Under the pieces are notes generated by a model. That model saw nothing but the letters and a program-made list of their open reading frames with translations. It was not told the origin of the DNA and did not search any database. 51,729 nucleotides of DNA from Escherichia virus TH25, in the sequence record MT446399.1. One strand, 5' to 3'. Numbering within the stretch: position 1 is the first letter of the stretch; each line of letters begins with the position of its first letter. Shown piece by piece: positions 26,528 to 51,496 of this stretch. The translations under genes were made by a program, and so were the position numbers.

Positions 26528-26713
26528 TTAATCACAATCCACTAATGGTTGAGTTTGCACGGGATTGATGCGAATGATGTTGCCCAAACTAGAATCAGCT
26601 TTTAAAATCAGTCGATTTAGTGGCATGAATGAATCACAGATGGGACATTGTTGGGTGATGAAATCATCCTCTGCCACTTCATAATGGCAGTTACTACATT
26701 GAATTGTGCGCAT
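26528..26713 (-). CDS. Zinc-ribbon small protein
   Basis: 61 aa with CxxC...CxxC pairs; GGAG 9 nt upstream of ATG. Confidence 0.3.
   Translation of the reverse strand: MRTIQCSNCHYEVAEDDFITQQCPICDSFMPLNRLILKADSSLGNIIRINPVQTQPLVDCD
26533..26548 (-). promoter_or_regulatory. Variant copy of recurrent intergenic motif (+ strand CACAATCCACTAATGG)
   Basis: Resembles consensus CACATCCAACTAATG with one indel; lies about 25 bp upstream of terminase ATG. Confidence 0.25.
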
Positions 26714-26732
26714 AAGCGACTCCGAATAAGAT

Positions 26733-26750
26733 AGGAGGCCAGATAGCCTC
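26733..26750 (-). terminator. Hairpin GGAGGC-n6-GCCTCC (weak intrinsic terminator/attenuator candidate)
   Basis: 6-bp GC-rich stem followed on the minus strand by TATCTTATT. Confidence 0.25.
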
Positions 26751-26767
26751 CCTATTATGCGTGCCGC

Positions 26768-27097
26768 TTAATATTTAATATCGCTCCAATCCATATCTTT
26801 AAAGAAATCTTCAAGATACTGTTGGGTAGAACCAACAACCACCACAATCTTAAATGGCAGTATTAGCGGCTTTACAGCCGACATTAAATCTTCGCGCCCA
26901 CGCTTGATACGTTCGACGTTCTTGATTGTATTTTCACCACGAGGAAGCATGAAAACGATAACATCCGCACCTGTTTCATTGCGCGTTGCAAGTGCACGGG
27001 TGAGATAAGTACCACCGCCAGTTGAAGTGACGGTGGATTTCAAATATGCAAACTTGACTTTGCGATTATTTACAACAACAGGTGAGGACAGTTTCAT
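26768..27097 (-). CDS. Hypothetical protein
   Basis: 109-aa ORF in replication module. Confidence 0.35.
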   Translation of the reverse strand: MKLSSPVVVNNRKVKFAYLKSTVTSTGGGTYLTRALATRNETGADVIVFMLPRGENTIKNVERIKRGREDLMSAVKPLILPFKIVVVVGSTQQYLEDFFKDMDWSDIKY

Positions 27098-27126
27098 TCA
27101 GATAGGTTCCAAATAGTTACTAATTA

Positions 27127-27579
27127 CTAAACTCGTCCAGTTGAACCAAACCCACCTTCACCACGAACAGTGGAATTTAAGTGGTCAACTTCAACGAAAT
27201 GGTGTTGAGTAGCTTTACTAACTTGCACTTGACAAACACGTTCGCCTGGTTGAATAACAAAGGCTGTGTCCGAGTCGTTGTGCAGCTTAACCATAAGATT
27301 ACCGCGATAGTCGGAATCCAGAATGCCTGTGCAGTTTGCAAGGCGAATACCAGACTTAAAGCCATGACCAGAACGGCTATGCACTTTGAGTTCGTATCCA
27401 ATTGGTACTTCGAACTGGAGGCCAGTATCGACAACAACAGAAGAGCCGGGATTGATAACAACAGTGGTATCGGATACAGTACAAACATCAGCAGCAGCAG
27501 CGCCAGCTGTAGCATACACAGGTAATTTCGCATTAGGGTGTACTCGTTTAACTGCAACAACTTGGGTCATACAAGACAT
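27127..27579 (-). CDS. dut: dUTP diphosphatase (dUTPase)
   Basis: 150 aa; dUTPase motifs RSGHGFK, GILDSDYRGNL, VIQPGERVCQ, RGEGGFGSTG. Confidence 0.85.
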   Translation of the reverse strand: MSCMTQVVAVKRVHPNAKLPVYATAGAAAADVCTVSDTTVVINPGSSVVVDTGLQFEVPIGYELKVHSRSGHGFKSGIRLANCTGILDSDYRGNLMVKLHNDSDTAFVIQPGERVCQVQVSKATQHHFVEVDHLNSTVRGEGGFGSTGRV

Positions 27580-27581
27580 GG

Positions 27582-28208
27582 TTATTTCTCTACTTGATAA
27601 GTTATGCGCTCAATCCAGTTGAACACTTTGAATACAGAATCTTCCACCTTACCATCAATTAGATGTTCATCCACTGTTACGCGGGTAGGTGTGTTTGGGA
27701 GGTTGATGTATCTGCGAGAATCGCCCGCGAAATCAAAACCATCACGATGCAAACGCACAATGATGACGAAATCATAAGCAGACTCAACGGCAACGACTTC
27801 ATCGCCAAAACCGCCATCGGGATAAATGACATTAATAACGCCACCCATACGCCCCGCGAGTTCTTTAACACGAGCAGCTTCAACATTGCCGAAGTAGTCC
27901 TGTCCGTGACGAGGTTTATAGATGTCTTCACTAACATGAATAAGAGCTTGGCGAGGTGTTCTGCCACCCAGACCTGCAAGGGAGATAGAGTCTTTGAGGT
28001 CACGGTCCGAAGCGTAGTGAATAAACTTGTCCACATCAACTTGAAAGTGTTTGGCAGTATGCTCATACAGTGCATCCTTAAACTGGTGTTTAGTGAATCG
28101 GCGCTTACCGAGAAAGTATGATTCCTCAGCAGCAACTATCTTGTTGGCAATTGTATCTTTACCACAGCCAGGTGGGCCATTAAGAATGACAGCTAAACGC
28201 TTAATCAA
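27582..28208 (-). CDS. P-loop nucleotide kinase (dNMP kinase-like)
   Basis: Walker A GPPGCGKDT; track ORF runs to 28310 but TTG at 28208 has GAGGAAA 5 nt upstream and sits 8 nt from the upstream stop. Confidence 0.45.
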   Translation of the reverse strand: MIKRLAVILNGPPGCGKDTIANKIVAAEESYFLGKRRFTKHQFKDALYEHTAKHFQVDVDKFIHYASDRDLKDSISLAGLGGRTPRQALIHVSEDIYKPRHGQDYFGNVEAARVKELAGRMGGVINVIYPDGGFGDEVVAVESAYDFVIIVRLHRDGFDFAGDSRRYINLPNTPTRVTVDEHLIDGKVEDSVFKVFNWIERITYQVEK

Positions 28209-28956
28209 AACTTTCCTCACTCTTGTCTGTGCGAAGACGTACCAAAGAAGGGAAGCGGAATTTGCCAGCTTCTGTCTTCTCACGATATCGAACTTGCATA
28301 ATCGAACCAACTAGCTCGTTACGATGTGCCCACAACCACTTACGGATTTCAGTGTTTGACTCTGGAATACCGTGGTCTGCCAGACAATCTTTCACCATCG
28401 AACCAGCACTGCCGTAGTTAGAGGAGATAGAGCCACACATACCTTTGAGAGCACCAGTACCTTCTTTCATACCAGTAATCTTCACATCGGCGTATTTGTA
28501 TGGTACAATCTTCCACCACTTACCTTTTGCATCACGGACAATGATACCTTCATGACCAAGCGCCAGATATTTATCCATCAATGCCTTAAGGTTTTCATTG
28601 CTTGGGTCTTTGCACCAGCCGATGTACAGGCGTGGGTCAACAGCACCATCACTCAACTCATACACATTGTCCTGGGTTAGGGGGATGCTTGGCGGGTCAA
28701 TACGTCCGAGGATGCTAGAAGTCTCATTCCAACTATTACGGAATATCTCAGCATCTCTGAACTGTAAGTGGTCCAAATGAGGTAGGGGTTTGGAATTACG
28801 ACTCCAGACACTACCTGATTTATTACGGATAGCTCGAATTCCGTCAATCTTGATGAAGAGTTCACAGCGCCCTTTGATACGGCAGTCTGGGTCTTCCCAA
28901 TCATGTGCGTGAGCCTTTGTGTATCTTGTACCATCATCGAGGAGCTTAATAGACAT
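28201..28956 (-). CDS. ATP-dependent DNA ligase (compact)
   Basis: 251 aa; adenylation motif I KIDGIR and EGIIVRDAKGKWWKIVP block. Confidence 0.7.
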   Translation of the reverse strand: MSIKLLDDGTRYTKAHAHDWEDPDCRIKGRCELFIKIDGIRAIRNKSGSVWSRNSKPLPHLDHLQFRDAEIFRNSWNETSSILGRIDPPSIPLTQDNVYELSDGAVDPRLYIGWCKDPSNENLKALMDKYLALGHEGIIVRDAKGKWWKIVPYKYADVKITGMKEGTGALKGMCGSISSNYGSAGSMVKDCLADHGIPESNTEIRKWLWAHRNELVGSIMQVRYREKTEAGKFRFPSLVRLRTDKSEESFD

Positions 28957-29470
28957 TAAGATTCTTTCTCAGGTATTCTCGAACAGCATTCTTGCGTCCG
29001 ATTTTGGTTTTAGGAACTGGCTCTATTTTAGCAAGATTGCACTTGGCAATTTGCTCTTCGTCAGACAATTTGGCAAATGCAATACACTTCTTCTCAATGA
29101 CTGCATCACGTCGTGATACACCATATCGTTCCATGTATGTGATAATGCCGTGACAATCTTTACACAGCAACTCCAAATCTTCTGGCTGAACCAGTAGAAG
29201 GTTGTCCACAAAGCGGTGCAGGTCTTCCAACTTAAGGAGGCCACCAACTTGAACTTTGTGGTTTACTTCAATCTCTTTGAGCTTATACAACTTCTTGCAA
29301 TGGTAGCATTGAATGTGGAAGATTGGTTTCTTTGAGTCACCGACCTTCAATGCAATGCGTCGAGATTGTATCAGCGCGAGTTTGCTTGGGTGTTTAGACC
29401 AAACACTGCGAATAGCAGACTGGAGCCAAGAAATAAACTTGGCTTCCGTTCCACAATAACCGTAAGCCAT
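28946..29470 (-). CDS. HNH-family endonuclease (putative homing endonuclease)
   Basis: 174 aa; paired Cys motifs (CYHCKK, CKDCHG) flanking an EVNHKV block. Confidence 0.45.
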   Translation of the reverse strand: MAYGYCGTEAKFISWLQSAIRSVWSKHPSKLALIQSRRIALKVGDSKKPIFHIQCYHCKKLYKLKEIEVNHKVQVGGLLKLEDLHRFVDNLLLVQPEDLELLCKDCHGIITYMERYGVSRRDAVIEKKCIAFAKLSDEEQIAKCNLAKIEPVPKTKIGRKNAVREYLRKNLNVY

Positions 29471-29481
29471 TTCAACTCCAA

Positions 29482-30555
29482 TTATTTCTGGAGATACTCT
29501 GCATGAGGGATTATACGGTTCTCTTTAAGATGGAATCGGTCAATGACACCTTTGTAGTGCCACAAGCGAACGAGATTCCCATCATCAATTTGGTGATGCA
29601 TGTACACGAGTCGACCAACTTTGAGAAGCTCTTCTTCCCAACCGTCACCGAATCGCATGATAAATGCACCAATAACTTTCTTCAAACCTTCTGCATAAGT
29701 AGTGGTCTTATCCAAAAGTTCGAAAGATTCGACAGCACCGACACCACTTCGACGGAAATATGTTTCTCCAGCCTTGGCACCAGTCTTGTAAATCTTCTCT
29801 TCCAATACGCCACAACCCATAACGTTATCCGTTGAGTCGCCGATAAGGAGTTGATGCAAGAAGAATTTAGGGCCACAACCTTTAACTTCTTTCTTCTTAG
29901 ATTTACCGTTGTCTTTGATAATTAATTTGAGTTCACCGTAATCCTTCGGGATTACAATCTTCTCACCAATACCCTGGGATTCACGCTCCCATTGGTAATG
30001 TTTGATTACTGGACCAGTGTCACCGAATTGTCCGATTTGGCGCAAGTCTTTGTCAAGCGACGCAATCCAAACTTCATCATATGTGCACGGACCAATACGC
30101 GTGAGGCTTTTAATCTCATTACGTTTACCCATTGTTGCTTCGTATTCATGGCGAGCGAATACAGCCAGAAGGTCATCTGCTTCCAGACCCTTCATCCACA
30201 TTCCATTCCATGCAACCATGAGATGTGCTTTCGCATTCTTAAGGTTTTCTGGACGCCATACGCCATCACGGTTGCCCTTGTAGTCAGGAGCAAATTCGTT
30301 GCGCATTGTTTTAGATGGCGAGATGAAAGTAATAACTTCCGTAGCACCAGCACGTTTGGCGAGGAATTCCATTTTAGAATCCATCGACATTTGAATCTTA
30401 GCAAAGTTAATATCTTCGGGGTCTTTGCCGTACTCTTCAGCAGCACAGTGGCTGAATGCAACCATGTCGCCGTCTACCAGCAACAATACTCGTTTCTTAC
30501 TCACTTTGGTAAGCTCCAAATTAAAGGCTCCCGAAGGAGCCATATTGTTCAACAA
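29482..30555 (-). CDS. 5'-3' exonuclease / flap endonuclease
   Basis: 357 aa; LLLVDGDMVAF, GLEADDLLA and LIGDSTDNV blocks of the FEN/5' nuclease family. Confidence 0.75.
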   Translation of the reverse strand: MLNNMAPSGAFNLELTKVSKKRVLLLVDGDMVAFSHCAAEEYGKDPEDINFAKIQMSMDSKMEFLAKRAGATEVITFISPSKTMRNEFAPDYKGNRDGVWRPENLKNAKAHLMVAWNGMWMKGLEADDLLAVFARHEYEATMGKRNEIKSLTRIGPCTYDEVWIASLDKDLRQIGQFGDTGPVIKHYQWERESQGIGEKIVIPKDYGELKLIIKDNGKSKKKEVKGCGPKFFLHQLLIGDSTDNVMGCGVLEEKIYKTGAKAGETYFRRSGVGAVESFELLDKTTTYAEGLKKVIGAFIMRFGDGWEEELLKVGRLVYMHHQIDDGNLVRLWHYKGVIDRFHLKENRIIPHAEYLQK

Positions 30556-31419
30556 TCAGAAGGGCATTCCAGTACCGCCAGCAGCACCACCTTCCGCTTC
30601 ACGCTGTGCTTTCGCAGCAGCTTGAGCTTCCAGTTCGGCTTTCATTGCTGCATCAACTTCTTCATCAGAAGCCTGATTCGGAACAGAATCATCAGCAGGT
30701 TTACCGCCCAGCAGAGCAGACAGTTTGGTTTTGTAGAAGTCAACACCAGCAGTGATGCGGTTCTTGATTGCGTAAGGAGAATCGCCACCAGGCAGCTTGT
30801 TGAACACTTCTAAGTCTGGCTCAGACATGTCGAAGAATACAGTCGGGTTAACCAGAGCTTTGGCTTCTTTCTTCTCTTTGGACTTCATCGGGGAGAAGGT
30901 AGCAACCTTGTTCGCAACCTGGCCAGCGTTCTTGCCAGACTGCTTGGTGTATTGGACAATGCCAACAACCAGAGGTTCGCCCAACCAATCTGGCAGGTTC
31001 TTAGCAGGGTGGCCCTGAATAGCCTGTTCCAGATTTGGTTTAACTTCCAGAGCATCAATCGCTTTAGCGAATTTGTAGATGTGGGAGTTGTCACCCATGA
31101 AGCCATCAGCGTTGTAGGTAAACTCAAAGTCAAACCAACGCGGCTTGTCTTCAAGATTCTTCGCCATCATTACGCCGTCATCTTCGTCCGGGTCTTGGAC
31201 CATGACCATAGCACCATTGCCATCAACCTCTTTCATGTACTCGTCGAGCAGTTCGAAAGTAACCAGAAGTTTCAGGGATGGGTTTGGATATTTAGCAGAG
31301 CCTGGCTGTAAGCCCAGGTCGATAATACGGCAGACACGAGCAGGATAACCACCCGCTTCCAGTAATGGTGCAGCAGAAGGAGTCTTGTTCGAGGCCAGAG
31401 TAGGAGCAGCAAATGCCAT
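30556..31419 (-). CDS. Putative ssDNA-binding protein (T7 gp2.5-like architecture)
   Basis: 287 aa; acidic/Ala-rich C-terminal tail ending in Phe; between exonuclease and polymerase. Confidence 0.35.
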   Translation of the reverse strand: MAFAAPTLASNKTPSAAPLLEAGGYPARVCRIIDLGLQPGSAKYPNPSLKLLVTFELLDEYMKEVDGNGAMVMVQDPDEDDGVMMAKNLEDKPRWFDFEFTYNADGFMGDNSHIYKFAKAIDALEVKPNLEQAIQGHPAKNLPDWLGEPLVVGIVQYTKQSGKNAGQVANKVATFSPMKSKEKKEAKALVNPTVFFDMSEPDLEVFNKLPGGDSPYAIKNRITAGVDFYKTKLSALLGGKPADDSVPNQASDEEVDAAMKAELEAQAAAKAQREAEGGAAGGTGMPF

Positions 31420-31430
31420 TTTGAGTACCT

Positions 31431-31676
31431 TTAAATTTCAATAATGTGAGAGTCAATGTCCAGGTCGGACAGGATAGATTGTGTTACTGCGAAATCTTCC
31501 GATTCCTTTAATGCTTTCAGGGCACTTTCGTAGGTAATATCGCCCTGATAATCACTTCCAAATAATGCCGAGGCGTGCATCTCAATTGCAGACACCGCCA
31601 GTTGTGTGGCCGGAATATCTCCAGCCGCTTGATGGAGTTCCATCTGTTGTTTGTCGTACAAGGCTAAAACACGCAT
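31431..31676 (-). CDS. Hypothetical protein
   Basis: 81-aa ORF; ATGA-type coupling with polymerase gene. Confidence 0.35.
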   Translation of the reverse strand: MRVLALYDKQQMELHQAAGDIPATQLAVSAIEMHASALFGSDYQGDITYESALKALKESEDFAVTQSILSDLDIDSHIIEI

Positions 31677-35439: not shown

Positions 35440-35444
35440 TTATA

Positions 35445-38662: not shown

Positions 38663-39001
38663 TTAGAATACCGGAGCTTCTTCAACAGCAGCTTCTGCTA
38701 CTACAGCAGCAGCTTCTTCTTCGACCTTAACTTCTTTCACGGTGTCAAACACAGTGCGTTCAACTTCCGGGCAACCAGCTTCAACCCACGGCAGATAGAA
38801 TGCCAGGAATGCAGCAGCGGTGTTGGTCTGCATTGAGCGAGAACGGTCAATCAGCTTGTTGGTGTTTGCGAACGCTTCAACAGCAGCTTCAATTTTAGCG
38901 CCGTTTTCCAGTTTAAAATCGTGTGCGTTACACTCAGCTTCGCTCAGGAACAGGGAACCATCGTTAGCTTCGTACTGAGTTACGGTTACAATCTTAGCCA
39001 T
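38663..39001 (-). CDS. Hypothetical protein
   Basis: 112-aa ORF with Ala/Glu-rich C-terminus; promoter-like motif 79 bp upstream. Confidence 0.4.
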   Translation of the reverse strand: MAKIVTVTQYEANDGSLFLSEAECNAHDFKLENGAKIEAAVEAFANTNKLIDRSRSMQTNTAAAFLAFYLPWVEAGCPEVERTVFDTVKEVKVEEEAAAVVAEAAVEEAPVF

Positions 39002-39079
39002 TTGTATATACCTTATATTAAATAGTTTTGCACGCCACGGTGACGTGACTTAGATAAAATTAAAGAGCCTTTCTCTTTT

Positions 39080-39094
39080 CACATCCAATTAATG
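39080..39094 (-). promoter_or_regulatory. Recurrent motif copy (+ strand CACATCCAATTAATG)
   Basis: One of 10 same-orientation copies of a 15-bp motif; 79 bp upstream of start at 39001. Confidence 0.35.
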
Positions 39095-39124: not shown

Positions 39125-39799
39125 TCAATACATATTGAATCGTTCGATTGTTTTGATTACCAAATCCTTTGTCTCATCGACAGTGAGTTCAGTGATGATT
39201 GATTCGTCATAACCCTCAATCTGGATTGCTACAAAACGCCCAACACCTGTTACGGTAAGTCGGTTAGTTCTGTCACGAACAACTACACCAGCTTCTTGCG
39301 CGACTGCTCGCAACAATTTCCAGCGTAAAGTTCGGTTTGGTACAGCAAAGCCCTTTGTCAAGAACAACTCTTTCATGAGTTCCCCGAGGCAAACAGCTTC
39401 AATGTTTTGTCCTCTTCCAACTAATTCTTGCAACAGGCACAGTGTCAACATTTCTAAATTGTTGAAGTGACCAGCGCGCTCCAAATTAAAGAACTCTGGA
39501 GGAACAGTTGAACGGGATTTAACAGCTTGCTTATATGCACGTTCTTCTTCCTGTGCAGCAAGCATTAGCATCTCTGGCTTGATATATTTCATAGCAGAGA
39601 AGCCAGCGCGTGTGGCTTTAATTATGCGACAAGCCTCTTTCATCTTGTAGCGTTGCCACTCACCGCGCTTCGATTCTGGATTAAAATGGACCCACATAAT
39701 GATAACATCTTCCTTGGCAAGATAGACGGCATCATTATCATTGAGCCATTGCTTGCACGTTGATAGTGCAATCTCTTTGTCATCATCATGATAAGACAT
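39125..39799 (-). CDS. Hypothetical protein
   Basis: Track ORF 39125..39856; ATG at 39799 follows upstream stop by 1 nt. Confidence 0.4.
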   Translation of the reverse strand: MSYHDDDKEIALSTCKQWLNDNDAVYLAKEDVIIMWVHFNPESKRGEWQRYKMKEACRIIKATRAGFSAMKYIKPEMLMLAAQEEERAYKQAVKSRSTVPPEFFNLERAGHFNNLEMLTLCLLQELVGRGQNIEAVCLGELMKELFLTKGFAVPNRTLRWKLLRAVAQEAGVVVRDRTNRLTVTGVGRFVAIQIEGYDESIITELTVDETKDLVIKTIERFNMY

Positions 39800-40408: not shown

Positions 40409-41046
40409 AGGAACTCTCCAATTTTCGATTCAGTGTTTGTGACTTCTCTTCTCATCTTTTGGCCCATGAAACAGGCCACAGGGTTGCGAAAATAGCCCTA
40501 TTTTAGGACTATAGCCAACCGTTTGTGTCAATTCTGGATAACTGCATTGGTGAAGGGTTACTCCCGTTAGGGTGCGGTACGCTAATCACATGAGTGTTGT
40601 CGCCTTACGGCTCAGGCGTGTCACAGAGGCTTTATAACCCTTCCCAATACATTCACCCAAATCCCAGCGTTGGCGTAGCTGGTGGCTTGGTTTTGTGCGG
40701 ATTATGCCACTCTAAGCCCTGTTTGTCCGACTTCCTCGGAGCACCAGCGGCTTGTGGCACAAACCTATTTTCGAATGACTAACATAAGCATGAGGCACAA
40801 CCCTCTAATTATTCAGCCCTAACAGCTTGCTTATTTAGTACCAATTCAACCCAATACATACACAACTATATACAATAGCGAACTATCTGCGAAAACTATC
40901 CGGCCCTATGGCCTAAGTTAAAGTTAATAGTGTGTGATGGAAACATTCCATCGAAAATAACTTTGTAGAATGAGTCGAACATTCTCGCACGTTATCGGCC
41001 GTAACGGTCTACCGAGTTACAAAGTTATTATCTGATGTTGTTTCTT

Positions 41047-41061
41047 CAATTCCAACTAATG
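41047..41061 (-). promoter_or_regulatory. Recurrent motif copy (+ strand CAATTCCAACTAATG)
   Basis: 15-bp motif family member in ORF-free region. Confidence 0.3.
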
Positions 41062-41181
41062 CCAATCTGTGCGACACACTCAGTCCAAGTTGTCCAGACT
41101 TGGTTGCTTAGGTCTGTGCTTATTGCAGTGGACTTCCTAGCAATTACTAATGACTAAGTATGTCGTCAGATTGACACTATT

Positions 41182-41196
41182 CAATTCCAACTAATG
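41182..41196 (-). promoter_or_regulatory. Recurrent motif copy (+ strand CAATTCCAACTAATG)
   Basis: 15-bp motif family member; followed by identical GTTTCAGA as the 41324 copy. Confidence 0.3.
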
Positions 41197-41267
41197 TTTC
41201 AGAATTATTCCAATATTCCAAACAAAAAAGAATAATAAGAATAAAATTAAATAAATGAAGAAAGTGC

Positions 41268-41297
41268 TTGACACCCATTTGGCGATAGGTGTATAAT
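41268..41297 (+). promoter_or_regulatory. Sigma70-type promoter candidate on the plus strand (TTGACA-18 bp-TATAAT with AT-rich upstream element)
   Basis: Consensus -35 at 41268-41273 and consensus -10 at 41292-41297, preceded by about 45 bp of A/T-rich sequence; oriented opposite to all genes. Confidence 0.4.
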
Positions 41298-41323
41298 GCC
41301 TTTCTTCCCTAAGAGGTCAGAAT

Positions 41324-41338
41324 CAAATCCCACTAATG
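41324..41338 (-). promoter_or_regulatory. Recurrent motif copy (+ strand CAAATCCCACTAATG)
   Basis: 15-bp motif family member. Confidence 0.3.
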
Positions 41339-45201: not shown

Positions 45202-45274
45202 GATTAAGATTCTCTTAAGTTAATTACAGTTTAAGTTTCAGTGACATTGCTAACCACGGAATAGCTTTGTCTCT

Positions 45275-45289
45275 CACATCCAACTAATG
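45275..45289 (-). promoter_or_regulatory. Recurrent motif copy (+ strand CACATCCAACTAATG)
   Basis: Consensus copy 74 bp upstream of start at 45201. Confidence 0.35.
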
Positions 45290-45329
45290 TTAGATTAATC
45301 AGGAACACTCAATGAATGCCCTTGTTAAT

Positions 45330-46101: not shown

Positions 46102-46164
46102 AAATGCTCCAAGTTAATTAATAATATTCAGCAACCACTCTCATTATAAGAATGGTTGAGGAAA

Positions 46165-46332: not shown

Positions 46333-46392
46333 GACACCAACTTGCGGAGAATACTTCCCAGAAGATGTTGATTTTTACACATTTAAACTTTG

Positions 46393-46620
46393 TCATTGCA
46401 ATACACCTTGTTCACAAATGTCTGCAAATTCTATACGATGGTCACGCTGCCATGTCCAGAATGCACCATTCATAGGAACGACAGCACCTTTACGAAATGC
46501 TGGAGAAATACTCTCAGCAGATTTGGTTACTTTAAATTCCAAAGGCGAAATAGCTTCACCTTCAATGATTAAGCCAACTGGAACGTAGTCTTTGTTGGAA
46601 GCAACACATTTAAATTTCAT
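46393..46620 (-). CDS. Hypothetical protein
   Basis: 75-aa ORF. Confidence 0.35.
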   Translation of the reverse strand: MKFKCVASNKDYVPVGLIIEGEAISPLEFKVTKSAESISPAFRKGAVVPMNGAFWTWQRDHRIEFADICEQGVLQ

Positions 46621-46873
46621 GGTATAAAACTCCTAATTCAGATTCTAATTTAAATTCACGGAAGAAATCCATTGTTACAAATCGGACTTTACCTTCGTCA
46701 TCAACTACGTTACAGGAAATGTCGGAGTGGACCATCCTGCCTAGCTTCAAAGCAACTTCTGAAAGATTCGCTTCGCCAGTCCCTGAGATTACACGGTAGA
46801 TGCGATATGGTGTAAAGCCGCTTAAAGAGTTATTACGGCTTGGGACAATCATCATGCCTGTTCTAGTAGCCAT
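46610..46873 (-). CDS. Hypothetical protein
   Basis: Track ORF 46610..46924; ATG at 46873 has GGAG 7 nt upstream. Confidence 0.35.
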   Translation of the reverse strand: MATRTGMMIVPSRNNSLSGFTPYRIYRVISGTGEANLSEVALKLGRMVHSDISCNVVDDEGKVRFVTMDFFREFKLESELGVLYHEI

Positions 46874-46886
46874 AATAACTCCAATA

Positions 46887-46970
46887 TTAAAAGTACATGA
46901 ATGCGCCAATAGTAAGTAGCACAAGTGGAAACATCAGAATACAGAATACTAATTTCTTTACGATATCCAT
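46887..46970 (-). CDS. Small hydrophobic peptide (27 aa, single TM helix)
   Basis: MDIVKKLVFCILMFPLVLLTIGAFMYF; TAATG overlap with upstream ORF; too short for the track. Confidence 0.25.
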   Translation of the reverse strand: MDIVKKLVFCILMFPLVLLTIGAFMYF

Positions 46971-47143
46971 TATTTCACCAGGAAGTAGAGAACAAGGGCA
47001 ACACCGACACATGCAATGATTGTTGGCATATAATTATCAATTTTACGATATTTACGTTCGACTGGCTTCTTGCCTTCGATGGCATTCATCAGTTCTTGAT
47101 GATTAATCTGCTGCATGAATGTGTTGAATTGCTGGTCGTTCAT
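46970..47143 (-). CDS. Small protein with C-terminal TM helix (57 aa)
   Basis: ATG at 47143 with GGAG 9 nt upstream; ends ...IIACVGVALVLYFLVK. Confidence 0.3.
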   Translation of the reverse strand: MNDQQFNTFMQQINHQELMNAIEGKKPVERKYRKIDNYMPTIIACVGVALVLYFLVK

Positions 47144-47308
47144 TTAATACTCCAGATATTCGTAAATTGATTTAACACGTCTTGCCACTTCACGAGCAGG
47201 CATACGTGGATTTGCTTCTTTAGCCATTTTCTTCAAACGTTTGTTTGAACTGCCGTAGGCAGCAGCGTAAACACAGGATTTAAAAGATTTGAAATGGGAT
47301 AATTTCAT
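47144..47308 (-). CDS. Small basic protein (54 aa)
   Basis: ATG at 47308 overlaps upstream stop (ATGA); stop TAA abuts next ATG. Confidence 0.25.
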   Translation of the reverse strand: MKLSHFKSFKSCVYAAAYGSSNKRLKKMAKEANPRMPAREVARRVKSIYEYLEY

Positions 47309-47493
47309 TTTGCCTCTAGAATTTGATTTAAAGAGCTGAACACGATTTCTTCATGTTCATCAGGTGTACATGCGTTGATGTAGTCAAAGTCATAACCAAC
47401 AAACTTCTCCGCCCACTGTTGCAAACGAAGTAAAGAATTGAAGTACAAACGTTGCTCTACACCATTTAACTTAAAGTAGACGATGAAGTCCAT
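47305..47493 (-). CDS. Hypothetical protein
   Basis: 62-aa ORF. Confidence 0.3.
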   Translation of the reverse strand: MDFIVYFKLNGVEQRLYFNSLLRLQQWAEKFVGYDFDYINACTPDEHEEIVFSSLNQILEAK

Positions 47494-47495
47494 GA

Positions 47496-47732
47496 TTAAC
47501 CTCGTGCTTTAATGAAGTGAGGGTGAGTAGCCATTGCCACAATTTTGTTGTGCTTGTCATTTTGAATTGCAAGCCAAACATATTCAGGGTGTGCAGCAGG
47601 TTTCCATACCAGACTTCCTCTTTCTCCATAAATCATCGTGTCAGCCAACATCACTGCCTTAGTTTTAATATTAACCAAGGCATGAGAAACAACACCATCA
47701 CGATTGATATATTGATACAGTGCGTAATCCAT
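47496..47732 (-). CDS. Hypothetical protein
   Basis: Track ORF 47496..47792; ATG at 47732 directly follows upstream stop. Confidence 0.3.
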   Translation of the reverse strand: MDYALYQYINRDGVVSHALVNIKTKAVMLADTMIYGERGSLVWKPAAHPEYVWLAIQNDKHNKIVAMATHPHFIKARG

Positions 47733-47733
47733 T

Positions 47734-47982
47734 TCAGAATCCTTTAGTGTACCCAACAGTTTTGCGCAGAATGATTTCATCATTTGAATCATCTGGCTCT
47801 AATTCGATTTCAATATTGACAACAATATTGTCGCTAAAAGTACATGCCTTACTTGAATCAAAGAACTTTACAGCATTATACTTATCTGACTCATTTACTT
47901 TAATCCACTTCACAGAACGAACAGTAAAGATTTGTCCATCTTGCAGGTCTTTAAAGTAAGCCGCTTTAGTAACAGTATCCAT
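47734..47982 (-). CDS. Hypothetical protein (first gene after repeat region)
   Basis: 82-aa ORF. Confidence 0.35.
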   Translation of the reverse strand: MDTVTKAAYFKDLQDGQIFTVRSVKWIKVNESDKYNAVKFFDSSKACTFSDNIVVNIEIELEPDDSNDEIILRKTVGYTKGF

Positions 47983-48268
47983 TTTTATTCTCCTAAGTTA
48001 AAAGAAAACTCCCGTCATAACGATTGTGGAGGTCTTGTGTTACCTTAATCCACCTTAAAGAATCAGGGAGTTACATATTAGTCTGTGTGTGCTGCTCTCG
48101 GTTACTTCCTAGTATTGCGAAGCTCTTGCACTCCCGCAAACCACACCTTTTGCACAGTCTATATGTGACACATTAAGTGCCGAAAACTACAATGATTAGC
48201 TTGGAGACATAATCTCTCTAAAATCTGTCACACAATTTCAGCAGAATTTACAGAGATTTGGTCTTATT

Positions 48269-48283
48269 CACATGCAACTAATG
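48269..48283 (-). promoter_or_regulatory. Recurrent motif copy (+ strand CACATGCAACTAATG)
   Basis: Motif family member about 290 bp upstream of gene start at 47982. Confidence 0.3.
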
Positions 48284-49183
48284 ATAAATGGACATGCTTA
48301 ATTGCAACCAATTCATCTGCCAAATAGACGAATTTAGTCACAATCAAACATGCTCATTAATTACAGGTTTGCTCCTATCTTGGAATGTATTTGGCACATC
48401 AAGAAGTGGCGCAATAGGTACGGAAAACCGACCATGTACAGCATAATAAAACTAATTAAATAAAGGGTTTTATCCCAATATTGTCACAATATTTACATGC
48501 GATGATAAAGCCTTCGCTTGGCTGGAAGCCAGTATTCATGCGGGTTGCAAGAATATTGGGTGAATATTGATACATTTATTACATGCGAAATTGGCACAAA
48601 TACTGTTACAAAATTAACATGCCGGATTGGTAGACAATTGTATCTTCGAGGTGATTAGTCCTCTAACAATTCTGCCACATTCTAACATGCCAATTTGTAG
48701 CAATATTTACATGCCATACTGTAGCAATATTGCCACAATATTTGTTGCTCAAAATCGGGGCGGCTTCTGCGTGAAAACGAGAGGCTTTGCTCCGACTCTT
48801 CTCTTCTTTCGAATTCTGATTGAAAGAAAGAAGCATGTCCAAAAGTTCCAGTCTTGCCAAAGTTATCTCCCGGCTTGTGGGTGGGCCTTGATAATAGGAG
48901 ATGGAGCAATATTGAAACAAGTGAACATGCTTAGGTTTGCTGACTTTCTTGTAACTTAATCAAGATGGCTAACACGATGTTCTGTTGTTAGTTCAGCACC
49001 GGAAGAACAGTTTCGAATGATAATCCTACTTCACACATGGTTGCTGGAACTTTGTCCGGCCAAAGACAGGGAGTTCAATGATTGCCACATCATTACAACG
49101 CTGTGTGTTTAGTTGACATGCTGAAATGTTTCTAGAATGATTTCAACATGACATGCGGAAGATTTCTCCGTATTCTGTTACTT

Positions 49184-49198
49184 CACATCCAACTAATG
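49184..49198 (-). promoter_or_regulatory. Recurrent motif copy (+ strand CACATCCAACTAATG)
   Basis: Consensus copy at right edge of repeat region. Confidence 0.3.
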
Positions 49199-49249
49199 TC
49201 GAATATCGGGACAATATCACATGCAGCAATATTGTCCGAATATTGGGAA

Positions 49250-49408
49250 TCAGTGTAGGGTAGGCTTAACTACATCGTAAACTTTATCACCATCTGTGAT
49301 ACATGCTTCATCATAGTTATAGCCAACTGCAAAGTCTCTTGCTTCTTGCAGTGTTGCAAACATACGAATGATTTCAAATTCAGTACTAGAAAGAATTAAA
49401 GTAAACAT
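49250..49408 (-). CDS. Small hypothetical protein
   Basis: Track ORF to 49465; ATG at 49408 has GGAG 9 nt upstream and lies 30 bp downstream of a motif copy. Confidence 0.35.
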   Translation of the reverse strand: MFTLILSSTEFEIIRMFATLQEARDFAVGYNYDEACITDGDKVYDVVKPTLH

Positions 49409-49437
49409 TATAAAAGTCTCCAATTGGTTATTAGATT

Positions 49438-49452
49438 CACATGCAACTAATG
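49438..49452 (-). promoter_or_regulatory. Recurrent motif copy (+ strand CACATGCAACTAATG)
   Basis: 30 bp upstream of ATG 49408. Confidence 0.35.
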
Positions 49453-49472
49453 CCATCCTTGGCACATAGTTG

Positions 49473-51413
49473 TTACTGGCAGAAGTAGTAAGCGTGTTCG
49501 CTCATCAGAAGTTCTTCTGTTACGATGTTCTCATGGTACATGTTGATGCCACCAAGTTGCTTGGACAGAGATTCAAACTGATTATTGTGAACAAAGATTT
49601 CAACATAAGCAGAACGAATAACTTCCATCATTTTAGGAGCATCAGCTAAGCAGCAACGGAAACAATCGTGAATTGAAGTGAAACCACGAAGACCAGCTTC
49701 TTTAGCTTTGACTGCAACAGTACGAGCAACCAATGCGTCAATACCTTGAATGTAGTTAACAACGAAGGTACGCTTGAATTCTTCTTTAGTTGGATTGGAC
49801 TCACGAATGGTCCAAGGCTTATTCTCCTGAATCTGACCAAAGATGACACGAGTTTGAGAGTCAACACGAATGCTGAACGCATCACAAACATCACGAGATG
49901 GGAAGCAAGGCTTCATTACAACCTGACCATCAGTGTGCTTATAGGTGATGTACTCTTTGTTGAGTTCAACACAACGGTTGTATGCAGCATCAGCAGCTTT
50001 CTCGATGAACATGTTAATCTTAGCACCCAATGCATTATGGATTGCTTCTACACAAAGTTCAGCAAATGCTTCTGCTTTCTCCATAGGAATCTGGAGCGCT
50101 TCTGTCATGTATGCGATGAAGTCAGAAGAACCAGTTAATGCAGCTTTACCACCACCATATTGGATAGCCATGTATGGAGTTTTGATAAACTTACGACCAG
50201 CTTTCGGATTCAAGAATTCATCCATAATTTCAGCGGATGGTTTCATTGAAGAACGGTCAAGCAACTTCAACAGTTCACGAAGAGATAACTGGTATGGGTC
50301 AGATGCTTTAGTCTCAGAATCAACCAGACCTGTTGCACGAGCCATCTCCATGTTACCAGCAATGAATGCCAGATATTGAGTACCAGAACATTTAGCATCT
50401 AAGCCAAAGCCTACACGAGAATCACACTCACCTGTAGTCTCAAACTTGAACCAATCCAGAGCTAATCGAACATAAGTGAATGGCTTAGAAGGACGCTCAC
50501 CTTTAGGCATGTTCAGCATACGAGCCAAAGAACCAGCAGGATTCTGTGCAACATAAGTTAAACGTTTAGCAGAAGTCCAGTCTCCACCAGCAATATCTTC
50601 CAGCTCAAGCATGAACATGTTGTATGCCAGAGTTGTAGAACCATCAGCATTAAACTTGCTCACAGTGTTCTCAACATTGTGGGAATACAGGCAACGAGCA
50701 AAGTCAGATGATTGTGGGTTAGGACCAGCACACGCTACGTGATACAGACGACCACGGTTATCAGCAAAGTAGTCAGAGAACAGAGTGTCCTGACCAACCA
50801 TTGCTACAGCATTGTTCCAAACATGGAGTTCAGTCTGGATTGCTTCTGGCATCTGCAAGCCACCAAATGTACGTTGTTCTAACATGGAAGAGATAACCTT
50901 AACCATTGTTGCATCGACGTGATATTCAGTATCTTGCAGGAATTCGATTGCAGCTTTCAGAGTCTTGGATGGCTTAACTTTGCCACCTTTAACGAAAGGC
51001 TTGCGACGAGATTCAGTTGTTACCTTCTCAGTGAATGGAACTGAGGTATCTTTGGTTGTAACCAGTTCAACCCATGCGTCAGTCATCTGGAACGATTTGT
51101 CCTCGTTCATGGTGATGAAACCGAAGTGTTTAGCCAGACCAATCAGGTTGATAGCTGGGTCAACATAGTGCATTGATTTCAAGTCGTTGTTGTAACGGTT
51201 GGCATCAGCAATAGAAGCAGAAGCCAGTTCAACCATCGAGATAGCCGGAATAACGTCATCACGCGTGAAAGACGTCATCATCTTGAATATGGCTAAGGCA
51301 GCAATAGCACAAGTCTGGGGCTGCATATAGTTCTGCTTCTCTTTGGCACGATATACCAGAGCGGTGATAGCAGGAACAACAGATTTGATAGTTTGAGTAG
51401 TGATAGTAGTCAT
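49473..51413 (-). CDS. Single-subunit DNA-dependent RNA polymerase (T7-like, compact)
   Basis: Blocks matching T7 RNAP: DNRGRLYHV (DWRGRVYAV), LDAKCSGTQY (DGSCSGIQH, motif A), YMAIQYGGGK (MTLAYGSKE, motif B), TSIHDCF (LIHDSFG, motif C); ATG at 51413 has GGAG 9 nt upstream; 646 aa. Confidence 0.8.
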   Translation of the reverse strand: MTTITTQTIKSVVPAITALVYRAKEKQNYMQPQTCAIAALAIFKMMTSFTRDDVIPAISMVELASASIADANRYNNDLKSMHYVDPAINLIGLAKHFGFITMNEDKSFQMTDAWVELVTTKDTSVPFTEKVTTESRRKPFVKGGKVKPSKTLKAAIEFLQDTEYHVDATMVKVISSMLEQRTFGGLQMPEAIQTELHVWNNAVAMVGQDTLFSDYFADNRGRLYHVACAGPNPQSSDFARCLYSHNVENTVSKFNADGSTTLAYNMFMLELEDIAGGDWTSAKRLTYVAQNPAGSLARMLNMPKGERPSKPFTYVRLALDWFKFETTGECDSRVGFGLDAKCSGTQYLAFIAGNMEMARATGLVDSETKASDPYQLSLRELLKLLDRSSMKPSAEIMDEFLNPKAGRKFIKTPYMAIQYGGGKAALTGSSDFIAYMTEALQIPMEKAEAFAELCVEAIHNALGAKINMFIEKAADAAYNRCVELNKEYITYKHTDGQVVMKPCFPSRDVCDAFSIRVDSQTRVIFGQIQENKPWTIRESNPTKEEFKRTFVVNYIQGIDALVARTVAVKAKEAGLRGFTSIHDCFRCCLADAPKMMEVIRSAYVEIFVHNNQFESLSKQLGGINMYHENIVTEELLMSEHAYYFCQ

Positions 51414-51481
51414 TTGTAAGTCTCCAAGATTGTGTATGATTTGAATGAAACGGATTATAATAGCGTAGCCATTACACAATT

Positions 51482-51496
51482 CACGTCCAACTAATA
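51482..51496 (-). promoter_or_regulatory. Recurrent motif copy (+ strand CACGTCCAACTAATA)
   Basis: 69 bp upstream of RNAP ATG; a TATAAT hexamer (minus strand, 51454-51459) lies between motif and gene. Confidence 0.35.

What the first reader, a model, noticed from the sequence alone, without database searches (positions are those of the whole stretch)
26533..51496. Conserved 15-bp motif (minus-strand CATTAGTTGGATGTG) recurring 10 times upstream of genes: candidate promoters for the phage RNAP
Same-orientation copies occur at 26533 (variant), 39080, 41047, 41182, 41324, 45275, 48269, 49184, 49438 and 51482. All are in intergenic DNA and most lie 25-80 bp upstream of a minus-strand start codon (terminase, the gene at 39001, the SSB-like gene, the 49408 gene, the RNAP gene). 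The motif has no sigma70 -35/-10 at fixed spacing. Because the genome encodes its own T7-like polymerase, the simplest reading is a phage-specific promoter family. The copy upstream of the RNAP gene itself would then imply autogenous transcription in addition to host-driven expression.
Basis: seen in the sequence. Interest (0 to 1): 0.6.

Follow-up and report, generated by a model that had tools for sequence, protein, structure and literature searches.

The report
Known-type phage RNA polymerase promoter motif
The repeated 16-17-base motif is real and is almost certainly the promoter used by this phage's own small T7-like RNA polymerase, but the same motif was already annotated as a "putative phage promoter" in the close relative phiEcoM-GJ1 in 2008, so this is a sound rediscovery rather than a new finding.

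Summary
The window is a phiEcoM-GJ1-like myovirus (Chaseviridae, Carltongylesvirus; 91-95% nt identity). All genes are on the minus strand.

**Observation.** All ten reported copies exist. A weight matrix trained only on sites from three other genera finds 11 window sites at 17.8 bits or more. All 11 are on the coding strand and none is on the other strand. Nine are intergenic and two lie at the 3' ends of small ORFs.

**The motif.** It is one asymmetric block, CATTAGTTG-RRW-GTGA(A/T), with no conserved flanks and no sigma70 elements.

**Comparative support.**
- Copies sit at syntenic positions in five genera: before and after the RNAP gene, and before the SSB and terminase genes.
- Within the genus the motif is 97% conserved against 78-83% for flanks.
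- The motif persists where the RNAP is at least 55% identical and is absent where it is 34-41% identical. The 34-37% loci carry a different repeated element.

**The polymerase.** It has a T7-RNAP fold and catalytic motifs, but a half-size N-terminal domain.

**Prior knowledge.** GenBank records of phiEcoM-GJ1 and SA91KD already annotate this motif as a phage promoter. No experimental proof was found.

**Caveat.** Only one weak copy precedes the 26-kb late region.

**Verdict.** Interpretation supported; already known; modest interest.

The parts
51480..51496 (-). Motif copy TATTAGTTGGACGTGAA. It lies 66-68 nt upstream of the RNAP ATG (51413) and 9 nt after a hairpin at 51505-51524.
   Evidence: 2 mismatches; 18.4 bits; (hairpin). 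Syntenic copies in GJ1, Mangalitsa, Y2, Myduc, PP101 and the L064 contig. Not annotated as a promoter in GJ1.
49473..51413 (-). Gene for the 646-aa single-subunit RNA polymerase, the presumed reader of the motif.
   Evidence: Pfam RNA_pol 1.3e-18. Motifs A, B and C present: GLDAKCSGTQ, RKFIKTPYMAIQYGG, IHDCF. Family profile hits T7 RNAP chains at 3e-15. AlphaFold model pLDDT 90.8. Foldseek top hits are T7 RNAP, E 5.7e-19.
49436..49452 (-). Motif copy CATTAGTTGCATGTGAA. It lies 20 nt after the RNAP stop and 29 nt upstream of the 52-aa ORF starting at 49408.
   Evidence: 24.5 bits.
49182..49198 (-). Consensus motif copy CATTAGTTGGATGTGAA, equivalent to GJ1 'putative phage promoter 1'.
   Evidence: 26.9 bits; 100% conserved in six genomes of the genus.
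48267..48283 (-). Motif copy CATTAGTTGCATGTGAA, equivalent to GJ1 promoter 2.
   Evidence: (24.5 bits).
45273..45289 (-). Motif copy CATTAGTTGGATGTGAG, 73 nt upstream of the SSB-like gene (start 45201). Equivalent to GJ1 promoter 3.
   Evidence: 23.7 bits. Syntenic SSB-upstream copies in Y2 6899, Myduc 9794 and PP101 7105. Homology between genomes breaks exactly at its 5' edge.
41322..41338 (-). Motif copy CATTAGTGGGATTTGAT, the first of three tandem copies in a roughly 1-kb non-coding region. Equivalent to GJ1 promoter 4. In SA91KD the homologous copy is preceded by an annotated terminator.
   Evidence: (18.1 bits).
41180..41196 (-). Motif copy CATTAGTTGGAATTGAA, the second tandem copy.
   Evidence: (22.5 bits).
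41045..41061 (-). Motif copy CATTAGTTGGAATTGAA, the third tandem copy. GJ1 lacks the 135 bp between this copy and the previous one.
   Evidence: (22.5 bits).
39078..39094 (-). Motif copy CATTAATTGGATGTGAA, 78 nt upstream of the gene starting at 39001. Equivalent to GJ1 promoter 7.
   Evidence: 22.8 bits. Syntenic copies in Y2 14531, Myduc 14708 and PP101 14255.
31551..31567 (-). It lies inside small ORF 31431-31676 and 133 nt upstream of the gene starting at 31419. Equivalent to GJ1 promoter 8.
   Evidence: 17.8 bits.
26531..26547 (-). Variant copy CATTAGTGGATTGTGAT. It overlaps the last codons of ORF 26528-26713 and lies about 24 nt upstream of the terminase ATG (26508). It is the only above-threshold copy ahead of the 26-kb late region.
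   Evidence: 18.9 bits. Syntenic copies in GJ1 26984 and Myduc 26995. Not annotated as a promoter in GJ1.
39410..39426 (-). Sub-threshold look-alike AATTAGTTGGAAGAGGA inside a coding region. Equivalent to GJ1 'promoter 6'. Probably conserved because it encodes L-V-G-R-G; doubtful family member.
   Evidence: 3 mismatches; 13.8 bits, below the shuffle 95th percentile of 15.95. In-CDS homologues in Y2 14193 and Myduc 14369.
12059..12075 (-). Degenerate remnant TATTATTTGAACATGTA at the position of GJ1 promoter 9, between the 1225-aa tail protein gene and the next gene. It follows a terminator-like hairpin at 12085-12108.
   Evidence: 7.1 bits here. The GJ1 homologue scores 19.1 bits.

Best explanation
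The motif is the promoter recognised by the phage-encoded 646-aa single-subunit, T7-family RNA polymerase.

**Shown here.**
- It is one asymmetric 16-17-nt block, CATTAGTTG-RRW-GTGA(A/T).
- It always points the same way as the genes.
- It sits almost only in gaps between genes of the early and middle region.
- It is conserved at the same map positions in related genera, while its flanks are not.
- It is present only in phages whose RNAP belongs to the same clade.

**Inferred.**
- Host RNAP first makes the polymerase from the gene at the left genome end.
- A polymerase monomer then binds the duplex motif. By analogy with T7, this would use a beta-hairpin 'specificity loop' (residues about 522-537) in the major groove.
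- It melts the 3' GTGA(A) end and starts at a purine. The start would be either the invariant G at motif position 15 or position 18, which is G in the strongest copies (GTGAA-GAAAC).
- It transcribes rightward through blocks of small early genes, then the SSB, replication and terminase modules.
- Sequence variants (GGATGTG, then GCATGTG, then GGAATTG, with RNAP- and terminase-proximal variants weakest) probably grade promoter strength.
- The weaker conserved copy before the RNAP gene would give limited positive feedback.
For: **Statistics.**
- 15 hits against 2.0 expected; none of 100 shuffles reached 15.
- The cross-genus matrix gives 11 sites at 17.8 bits or more on the coding strand and none on the other strand. 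Nine of the 11 are intergenic.
- The same bias holds genome-wide in GJ1 (10 sites against 0), Y2 (9 against 0) and Myduc (10 against 1).
- In 19 related loci the count is 84 against 6.

**Anatomy.** Information content is concentrated in one 16-17-nt block. There is no dyad symmetry and no -35/-10 at fixed spacing.

**Synteny.** Copies lie before the RNAP gene, just after it, and before the SSB gene, the terminase gene and the gene at 39001. This holds in Carltongylesvirus, Loessnervirus, Suwonvirus, Myducvirus and an unclassified contig with 55% RNAP identity.

**Footprint within the genus.** Motif identity is 0.97 against 0.78-0.83 for flanks.

**Clade specificity.**
- There are no hits in one locus with 41% RNAP identity or in five with 34-37%.
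- Three of those five, plus the related phage ZPAH14, carry a different same-strand element at analogous places.
- Myduc prefers GAG over GGA in the variable centre and has a 4-aa insert at the tip of the putative specificity hairpin.

**A cognate enzyme exists.** Pfam RNA_pol, catalytic motifs, T7 RNAP profile hit at 3e-15, confident model and T7 RNAP as top structural match.

**Prior annotation.** The motif is annotated as 'putative phage promoter' in EF460875 and OL960574. A review states that Chaseviridae RNAP uses promoters of similar sequence (PMC8472413).
Against: - No experimental evidence was found: no 5'-end mapping and no in vitro transcription. The ICTV 2022 profile calls the promoters unidentified.
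- Ten of the 11 sites lie in the first 20 kb of the genome map. Only one weak variant (26531) precedes the 26-kb structural and lysis region, and none precedes the major capsid gene. This differs from T7, where strong late promoters precede structural genes. Late transcription may therefore use something else.
- Position 18 is T in several good copies (48267, 49436, 51480, 41180), so a T7-style fixed G start at -17/+1 register is not general.
- The RNAP has only about 160 residues where T7 has a 312-residue N-terminal promoter-binding domain. The details of recognition cannot simply be copied from T7.
Confidence: 0.8

Rival explanations
1. The motif is a binding site or promoter element for host RNA polymerase redirected by a phage-encoded factor. 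This would resemble T4 MotA boxes or late promoters, or N4 late transcription. It would not be a promoter for the phage RNAP.
For: The sites are concentrated in the early and middle region and nearly absent from the late region. That pattern resembles a temporal class more than a T7-like genome-wide promoter set. Many small early ORFs have no known function.
Against: No -10-like or -35-like element lies at fixed distance from the motif. Sigma70-like matches are not enriched. Motif presence tracks the phage RNAP clade, not the host: the same motif occurs in phages of Escherichia, Yersinia, Erwinia, Pectobacterium and Proteus. It is absent from Aeromonas and Shewanella phages with divergent RNAP. 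No sigma-like or MotA-like gene was seen, although this was not searched exhaustively.
Confidence: 0.06
2. The motif acts at the RNA or elongation level. It could be a pause or termination signal for the phage RNAP (like the T7 class II signal), or an RNA processing or stability site. It would not be a start site.
For: Strict co-orientation with transcription and intergenic position fit this as well as they fit a promoter. The element that replaces it in the distant clade is a hairpin with compensatory stem changes, which suggests an RNA- or single-strand-level signal there.
Against: The motif has no hairpin potential. In SA91KD the copy homologous to window 41322 is preceded by an annotated terminator, the degenerate remnant at 12059 follows a terminator-like hairpin, and a hairpin lies 9 nt upstream of the 51480 copy. 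That is the classic terminator-then-promoter order. A conserved copy lies 20-93 nt upstream of the first gene of the genome. Distance to the downstream start codon varies from 24 to 560 nt, which excludes a translational element.
Confidence: 0.06
3. The motif, or two of its copies, marks the boundaries of the long direct terminal repeat. It would then be a terminase or end-formation signal.
For: In the deposited genome of Yersinia phage PYps23T, whose ends were determined experimentally (PMC8762354), the record starts CGTGAATT and ends CATTAGTTGGA. Both repeat boundaries therefore fall between motif bases 11 and 12 of the copies equivalent to window 51482 and 49184.
Against: Three other determinations place the left boundary 130-190 nt upstream of the motif. 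These are Y2 (ends as deposited) and the PhageTerm-annotated repeats of Myduc and Mangalitsa. The boundary lies at a homologous site 10-14 nt before GTCCC. Their right boundaries do not coincide with any motif copy. About nine other copies are never genome ends. Motif copies are demonstrably recombination and mosaic junctions, so the PYps23T junction may be a motif-to-motif recombination or a PCR artefact.
Confidence: 0.04
4. The copies, especially the three tandem ones at 41045-41338, are iterons or priming sites of a replication origin.
For: Three copies spaced 135-142 bp apart lie in a roughly 1-kb non-coding region. One flank is AT-rich, and a perfect antisense sigma70 promoter lies between two of the copies. 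From recall, the T7 primary origin is a pair of tandem phage promoters followed by AT-rich DNA, so the two functions need not exclude each other.
Against: The other eight copies are dispersed and each precedes a gene block. Copy number in this region varies: GJ1 has two and the window has three. No origin data exist.
Confidence: 0.03

Closest known systems
'Putative phage promoters 1-9' of Escherichia phage phiEcoM-GJ1 (GenBank EF460875; Jamalludeen et al. 2008, Appl Environ Microbiol 74:516). The same features are annotated in phage SA91KD (OL960574).
   Same: It is the same sequence. The 15-mer sits at offset +3 of each 20-bp annotated feature. The map positions match: window 49182, 48267, 45273, 41322, 41180/41045, 39078 and 31551 correspond to GJ1 promoters 1, 2, 3, 4, 5, 7 and 8. 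The genome is 91-95% identical.
   Different: - The window has three tandem copies where GJ1 has two.
- It has an extra copy at 49436 directly after the RNAP gene.
- Its promoter-9 homologue has decayed (7.1 bits).
- GJ1's 'promoter 6' homologue scores below chance level and lies in a coding region.
- Two conserved copies, before the RNAP gene and before the terminase gene, are not annotated in GJ1.
Class II/III promoters of T7-group phages (Autographiviridae: T7, T3, SP6, K11)
   Same: - A single asymmetric conserved block of about 17-23 bp is read by a monomeric single-subunit RNAP of the same fold.
- It is co-directional with genes and intergenic.
- It sometimes follows a terminator or terminator-like hairpin.
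- Its sequence is specific to the RNAP lineage.
- From memory of the published promoter sequences (a lead, not a test): the 5' half CATTAGTTGG resembles SP6 ATTTAGGTGA and K11 AATTAGGGCA at -17 to -8. The strongest copies continue GAAGAAAC, like the SP6 start GAAG.
   Different: - The conserved block is shorter, at 16-17 nt.
- It lacks the TATA at -4 to -1 and a uniform G start.
- The polymerase is 646 aa against 883 aa, with about half of the N-terminal promoter-binding domain.
- Sequence identity to T7 RNAP is only about 14%.
- The phage is a contractile-tailed myovirus.
- Promoters are almost confined to the early and middle region rather than preceding capsid and tail genes.
Repeated hairpin element of Aeromonas and Shewanella Chaseviridae relatives (Spp001, pAh6-C, ZPAH14)
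   Same: It has the same genomic role and positions: same-strand copies directly after the RNAP gene and in early intergenic gaps of phages with the same genome plan.
   Different: The sequence is unrelated: GGCTC-N3-4-GAGCC followed by (A/C)AAAG. It can form a hairpin whose stem varies compensatorily, and it occurs in 30-nt tandem arrays. The RNAP there is only 34-37% identical, and in ZPAH14 it is annotated as a longer 845-aa protein. The nature of this element is unknown.

Membership tests
phiEcoM-GJ1-type putative phage promoter (as annotated in EF460875 and OL960574) | Sequence matches the annotated 20-bp features | tested here: met
   All nine annotated GJ1 features contain the 15-mer at offset +3 with 0-3 mismatches. 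The SA91KD features cite the GJ1 paper.
phiEcoM-GJ1-type putative phage promoter (as annotated in EF460875 and OL960574) | Same map positions in a collinear genome | tested here: met
   Seven window copies map one-to-one to GJ1 promoters 1-5, 7 and 8. The genome is 91-95% identical.
T7-group single-subunit RNAP promoter | Genome encodes a cognate T7-family single-subunit RNAP with intact catalytic motifs | tested here: met
   Pfam PF00940 at 1.3e-18. Motifs A, B and C present. T7 RNAP profile hit at 3e-15. Model pLDDT 90.8. T7 RNAP is the top Foldseek hit at E 5.7e-19.
T7-group single-subunit RNAP promoter | One asymmetric conserved block of about 17-23 bp with no separate -35/-10 elements | tested here: met
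   Information content is confined to 16-17 contiguous positions. There is no dyad symmetry and no sigma70 enrichment.
T7-group single-subunit RNAP promoter | All copies co-directional with genes and in non-coding gaps | tested here: met
   11 of 11 sites are on the coding strand and 9 of 11 are intergenic. Related genomes give 10/0, 9/0 and 10/1.
T7-group single-subunit RNAP promoter | Promoter sequence specific to the polymerase lineage (co-variation) | tested here: met
   The motif is present in 19 of 19 loci with RNAP at 62% identity or more, and in one at 55%. It is absent in six loci at 34-41%, several of which have other repeated elements. Myduc shows a shift in the motif centre together with an insert in the specificity loop. 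This is correlative only.
T7-group single-subunit RNAP promoter | Transcription starts at a fixed purine at the 3' edge; initiation is specific and factor-independent in vitro | not testable with these tools
   The candidates are the invariant G at position 15 or position 18, which is G only in the strongest copies. This needs 5'-end mapping or run-off transcription.
T7-group single-subunit RNAP promoter | Strong copies precede late structural genes (class III) | tested here: not met
   There is no site at 16 bits or more in window 1-26500. Only the weak 26531 copy precedes the terminase gene, and the promoter-9 homologue has decayed.
T7-group single-subunit RNAP promoter | Upstream AT-rich part read by the N-terminal AT-rich recognition loop; full-size N-terminal domain | tested here: inconclusive
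Bacterial sigma70 promoter | -35 and -10 hexamers at 16-18 nt spacing | tested here: not met
Terminal-repeat boundary or packaging signal | Virion DNA ends fall at the element in every member | tested here: not met
   True only for the PYps23T record. Not true for Y2, Myduc or Mangalitsa.

The most novel reading that the evidence does not exclude
The promoter copies may do more than start transcription. The 16-nt direct repeats are the preferred crossover points for module exchange and deletion in this phage group. Homology between genomes breaks exactly at the motif in 3 of 6 orthologous sites, and GJ1 shows a motif-to-motif 135-bp deletion. In at least one lineage (PYps23T) the packaged genome's 2.3-kb terminal repeat may be delimited exactly inside two copies. 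That would couple RNAP-promoter complexes, or the motif itself, to genome-end formation, in loose analogy to the role of T7 RNAP pausing at the concatemer junction.
Probability: 0.08. Interest if true: 0.6.

Novelty: already known. Interest (0 to 1): 0.25.

Why it matters
**Why confirmation would matter.** The ICTV profile explicitly lists the promoters of Chaseviridae as an open point. Confirmation would close it.

**Possible practical use.** It would define one of the smallest natural T7-family polymerase and promoter pairs: 646 aa and about 17 bp. Such a pair could serve as an orthogonal expression tool.

**What this work adds.** It adds only comparative support and refinements:
- the extent of the motif;
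- eleven bona fide copies;
- two conserved copies not annotated in GJ1, before the RNAP and terminase genes;
- clade specificity;
- the scarcity of copies in the late region.

**For annotating this window.** The motif can be labelled 'putative phage RNAP promoter' with good confidence.

Tried and rejected
- **Literal-sequence literature search.** Searching for TTAGTTGGA returned only unrelated papers.
- **Papers not held.** The 2008 phiEcoM-GJ1 paper and the 2011 Y2 paper are not in the library. What they say is known only through GenBank features and citing papers.
- **Single-sequence search of solved structures.** phmmer of the RNAP against solved-structure sequences found nothing. A family profile was needed.
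- **Naive genome-wide k-mer clustering.** It was swamped by codon-periodic repeats. It was replaced by intergenic k-mers and a weight matrix.
- **Exact 16-mer scan of IMG/VR.** It gave 28 loci. About half come from Chaseviridae-sized contigs; the rest come from contigs of other sizes and were not examined (presumably chance matches). The result is uninformative on its own.
- **RNA annotation.** Rfam found nothing at gathering threshold or at E of 1 or less over the tandem-copy region. ARAGORN also found nothing.
- **Home-made terminator scan.** It found few convincing terminators, so no full transcription-unit map was drawn.
- **Terminal-repeat-boundary idea.** It was pursued through four genomes and rejected as a general explanation.
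- **Specificity-loop co-variation.** It rests on one genus (Myduc) and is not over-interpreted.

Full report
**What the window is.**
The stretch 45000-51729 matches phiEcoM-GJ1-like myoviruses at 88-95% nucleotide identity. These include the Yersinia phages PYps3T and PYps23T and the Escherichia phages TH29, phiEcoM-GJ1, ST32 and MLP1, all in Chaseviridae, Cleopatravirinae, Carltongylesvirus.
All long ORFs are on the minus strand.
Pfam identifies an RNA polymerase (49473-51413), a family A DNA polymerase, a primase/helicase, a terminase, a sheath-like protein and a 1225-aa tail protein.

**Checking the observation.**
There are 15 hits at 3 mismatches or fewer against 2.0 expected, and no shuffle out of 100 reached 15. 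Fourteen of the 15 are on the minus strand.

Anchored alignment of 26 sites from three genera shows that information content is confined to one 16-17-nt block, CATTAGTTG-RRW-GTGA(A/T). The flanks are flat on both sides. So there is no second element at fixed spacing and no dyad symmetry.

To avoid circularity I trained a 17-nt weight matrix only on sites from Erwinia phage Y2, Proteus phage Myduc and Pectobacterium phage PP101, then scanned the window.
- Eleven sites score 17.8-26.9 bits. The 95th percentile of the maxima of 200 shuffles is 15.95 bits.
- All eleven are on the coding strand. The best hit on the other strand scores 15.1 bits.
- Nine are intergenic. The 26531 copy overlaps the last codons of a 61-aa ORF, and the 31551 copy lies inside an 81-aa ORF.
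- The look-alikes at 39410, 24839 and 5392 score 13.7-15.0 bits, lie in coding regions and are not distinguishable from chance.

Sigma70-like matches are not enriched: 28 found against 33.6 expected.

**It is already annotated.**
GenBank EF460875 (phiEcoM-GJ1) carries nine 'putative phage promoter' features.
GenBank OL960574 (SA91KD) annotates the same sites as 'similar to promoter of phiEcoM-GJ1 (Jamalludeen et al., 2008)'.
[quoted passage not shown] I found no paper with 5'-end mapping or in vitro transcription for this family. The 2008 paper itself is not held.

**Comparative tests of the promoter reading.**

(a) Synteny.
- Y2 has copies at 190 (before the RNAP gene), 2230, 3100, 6899 (before the SSB gene), 8710, 12441 and 14531.
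- Myduc has copies at 175, 2207, 3770, 5813, 9794 (SSB), 14708, 26995 (terminase) and 41615.
- PP101 has copies at 358, 2473, 7105 (SSB), 11754, 12145 and 14255.
- Mangalitsa has copies at 134, 2623, 2879 and 3751.

(b) Strand bias.
- In 19 IMG/VR loci whose RNAP is 62-100% identical there are 84 hits at 15 bits or more on the gene strand and 6 on the other.
- A copy lies 20-93 nt before the RNAP gene in 15 of those loci.
- 18 of the 19 have a copy 24-350 nt after it.
- Genome-wide counts are GJ1 10/0, Y2 9/0 and Myduc 10/1. That matrix includes sites from the latter two genomes.

(c) Footprint.
Across six orthologous sites in six genomes of the genus, mean pairwise identity is 0.97 in the motif and 0.78-0.83 in the 40 nt on either side.

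(d) Clade specificity.
- A contig whose RNAP is 55% identical still has TTAGTTGG..TGA copies before and after the RNAP gene.
- A contig at 41% identity has none. It shows AT-rich TTATACAGTA repeats instead.
- Five loci at 34-37% identity (Aeromonas, Shewanella and related) have no hits at all.
- Three of those five, plus the related phage ZPAH14, carry a different same-strand element: GGCTC-N3-4-GAGCC followed by (A/C)AAAG. It forms tandem arrays directly after the RNAP gene and occurs in early gaps.

(e) Possible co-variation.
Myduc prefers GAG(T/A)GTGA where the others have GGATGTGA. It also has a 4-aa insertion (MKTKDHEA against IQEN) at the tip of a beta-hairpin that I take to be the specificity loop.

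**The polymerase.**
The 646-aa protein has the T7-family motifs A (GLDAKCSGTQ), B (RKFIKTPYMAIQYGG) and C (IHDCF).
A 47-sequence family profile hits T7 RNAP chains at 3e-15. Profile positions 162-400 align to T7 residues 318-592, and positions 561-621 to T7 residues 788-852 in the 878-residue chain shown. Hence only about 160 residues stand in for T7's 312-residue N-terminal domain.
The AlphaFold model is confident (pLDDT 90.8, pTM 0.86). It has a beta-hairpin at residues 522-537 just before the NYIQGIDA segment, which aligns to T7 NFVHSQDG.
Foldseek places T7 RNAP structures first (E 5.7e-19, TM about 0.6, 14% identity), followed by mitochondrial RNAPs.
The premise that the genome encodes its own T7-like polymerase is therefore sound. 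The enzyme is nonetheless a distant and unusually small member of the family.

**How it most likely works.**
Shown: the anatomy, orientation, location, conservation and clade specificity of the motif, and the existence of the cognate enzyme.
Inferred: a monomer binds the duplex motif, melts its 3' end and initiates at a purine.
There are two candidate start sites.
- One is the invariant G at motif position 15, which reads GAA(G) like the SP6 start.
- The other is position 18, which would give a T7-like 17-nt upstream part. The strongest copies in four genera read GTGAA-GAAAC. Several good copies have T at position 18, however.

Variant classes probably grade promoter strength.

**The corollary about autogenous transcription.**
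The RNAP-proximal copy is conserved across genera, but it is always a lower-scoring variant (15.6-26.3 bits). That fits limited positive feedback. It is not annotated in GJ1.

**The RNAP gene and the terminal repeat.**
The RNAP gene lies inside the long direct terminal repeat of these phages. Reported repeat lengths are 2.3-3.2 kb.
By homology with the ends of Y2, Myduc and Mangalitsa, the repeat in the window runs from about 51624 to 48798.
The sigma70 promoter annotated in GJ1 maps to window 51673-51702 (TTAATG-18-TATTAT). That is outside the repeat.
How the left-end copy of the gene is first expressed is therefore open. A perfect TATAAT lies about 40 nt before the ATG, but it has no usable -35 (my reading).

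**The main weakness.**
No site at 16 bits or more lies in window 1-26500, which holds terminase, head, tail and lysis genes.
Only the weak 26531 copy precedes the terminase gene.
The homologue of GJ1 promoter 9 has decayed to 7.1 bits, although a terminator-like hairpin precedes it.
Either one promoter plus read-through serves 26 kb, or late transcription uses another mechanism.

**A rival I followed: terminal-repeat boundaries.**
The deposited PYps23T genome, whose ends were determined experimentally, starts CGTGAATT and ends CATTAGTTGGA. Both repeat boundaries therefore fall between motif bases 11 and 12 of two copies.
The ends deposited for Y2 and the PhageTerm-annotated repeats of Myduc and Mangalitsa agree with each other within about 4 nt, at a site 130-190 nt upstream of the motif. 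Their right boundaries touch no motif copy.
Motif copies are clearly recombination junctions.
- Homology between genomes breaks exactly at the motif at three of six sites.
- GJ1 lacks precisely the 135 bp between two tandem copies.

The PYps23T junction may therefore reflect motif-to-motif recombination or a PCR artefact. I give this rival 0.04.

**Verdict.**
The thing is already known as a prediction and remains experimentally unproven. Interest is modest.

Noticed in passing
L003 1-20 and 2329-2345; L004 1521-1537 and 3855-3870 (Yersinia phage PYps23T, MW147598). Equivalent to window 51482-51496 and 49184-49198.: The deposited PYps23T genome starts and ends inside two copies of the motif (CATTAGTTGGA | CGTG...). 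Its 2339-bp terminal repeat therefore runs motif-to-motif. Y2, Myduc and Mangalitsa place the repeat boundaries elsewhere.
   Followed up: partly
window about 48798-51624: This is the probable direct terminal repeat of the phage, by homology with Mangalitsa, Y2 and Myduc ends. It holds the RNAP gene, a 52-aa ORF and three motif copies. The sigma70 promoter annotated in GJ1 maps to window 51673-51702, outside this repeat. The promoter for first expression of the left-end RNAP gene is therefore unclear.
   Followed up: partly
window 45273, 41180 and 41045; loci L040-L044: Motif copies are mosaic junctions. Sequence homology between genomes of the genus stops or starts exactly at the motif at three of six orthologous sites. 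GJ1 has a precise motif-to-motif deletion of the 135 bp between the second and third tandem copies.
   Followed up: partly
window 41268-41297, + strand: A perfect sigma70 consensus (TTGACA, 18 nt, TATAAT) points antisense to all genes. It lies between the first and second tandem motif copies.
   Followed up: no
window 40410-41046, - strand: This 637-nt stretch lies downstream of the three tandem motif copies and has no ORF of 60 aa or more on the gene strand. Its predicted fold is much more stable than shuffles (z = -4.9, 20 shuffles). There is no Rfam match. It is 85-93% conserved in the genus, where other records annotate assorted small hypothetical proteins.
   Followed up: partly
L063 11769-11829, 12556, 13143, 16944; L060 9121-9246; L062 8425-8521; L008 2766-2916, 3509, 4721, 6798, 9192: Aeromonas and Shewanella relatives (RNAP 34-37% identical) lack the motif. 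They carry a same-strand hairpin element, GGCTC-N3-4-GAGCC followed by (A/C)AAAG. It occurs in 30-nt tandem arrays right after the RNAP gene and in early gaps. The stem changes compensatorily (GGCCC/GGGCC, GCGC/GCGC). It may be their promoter or an RNA-level signal.
   Followed up: partly
window 49473-51413: The RNA polymerase is only 646 aa. About 160 residues replace the 312-residue N-terminal domain of T7 RNAP, yet the model is confident and the fold is T7-like. Homologues at 35-53% identity also occur in bacterial genome records (Hafnia alvei, Lelliottia, Pseudomonas).
   Followed up: partly
window 12112-15789: The 1225-aa tail or tape-measure-like protein contains a YqaJ-like recombinase/exonuclease domain (4.8e-12) in addition to a lytic transglycosylase domain.
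   Followed up: no
window about 51640-51729 and 49199-49240; L064 11918-13368: Short AATATTG-containing repeats (ATATTAATGAGACTnnAATTGT units; CAATATTGCTGCATGTGATATTGT) cluster just outside the left repeat boundary and just upstream of the 49182 copy. A contig with 55% RNAP identity has about ten such units in the non-coding 1.4 kb after its RNAP gene.
   Followed up: no
window 49784-49800, + strand: This is the best antisense match to the motif (15.1 bits) and lies inside the RNAP coding region. A single opposite-strand hit was also counted in six related loci, but its position there was not checked, so it may or may not be the same site. It is probably a coding constraint and is below the chance threshold.
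   Followed up: no
whole window: No tRNA gene is present, whereas phiEcoM-GJ1 and Myduc carry a tRNA-Arg in the early region. This agrees with the reported gain and loss of this tRNA among PYps phages.
   Followed up: no
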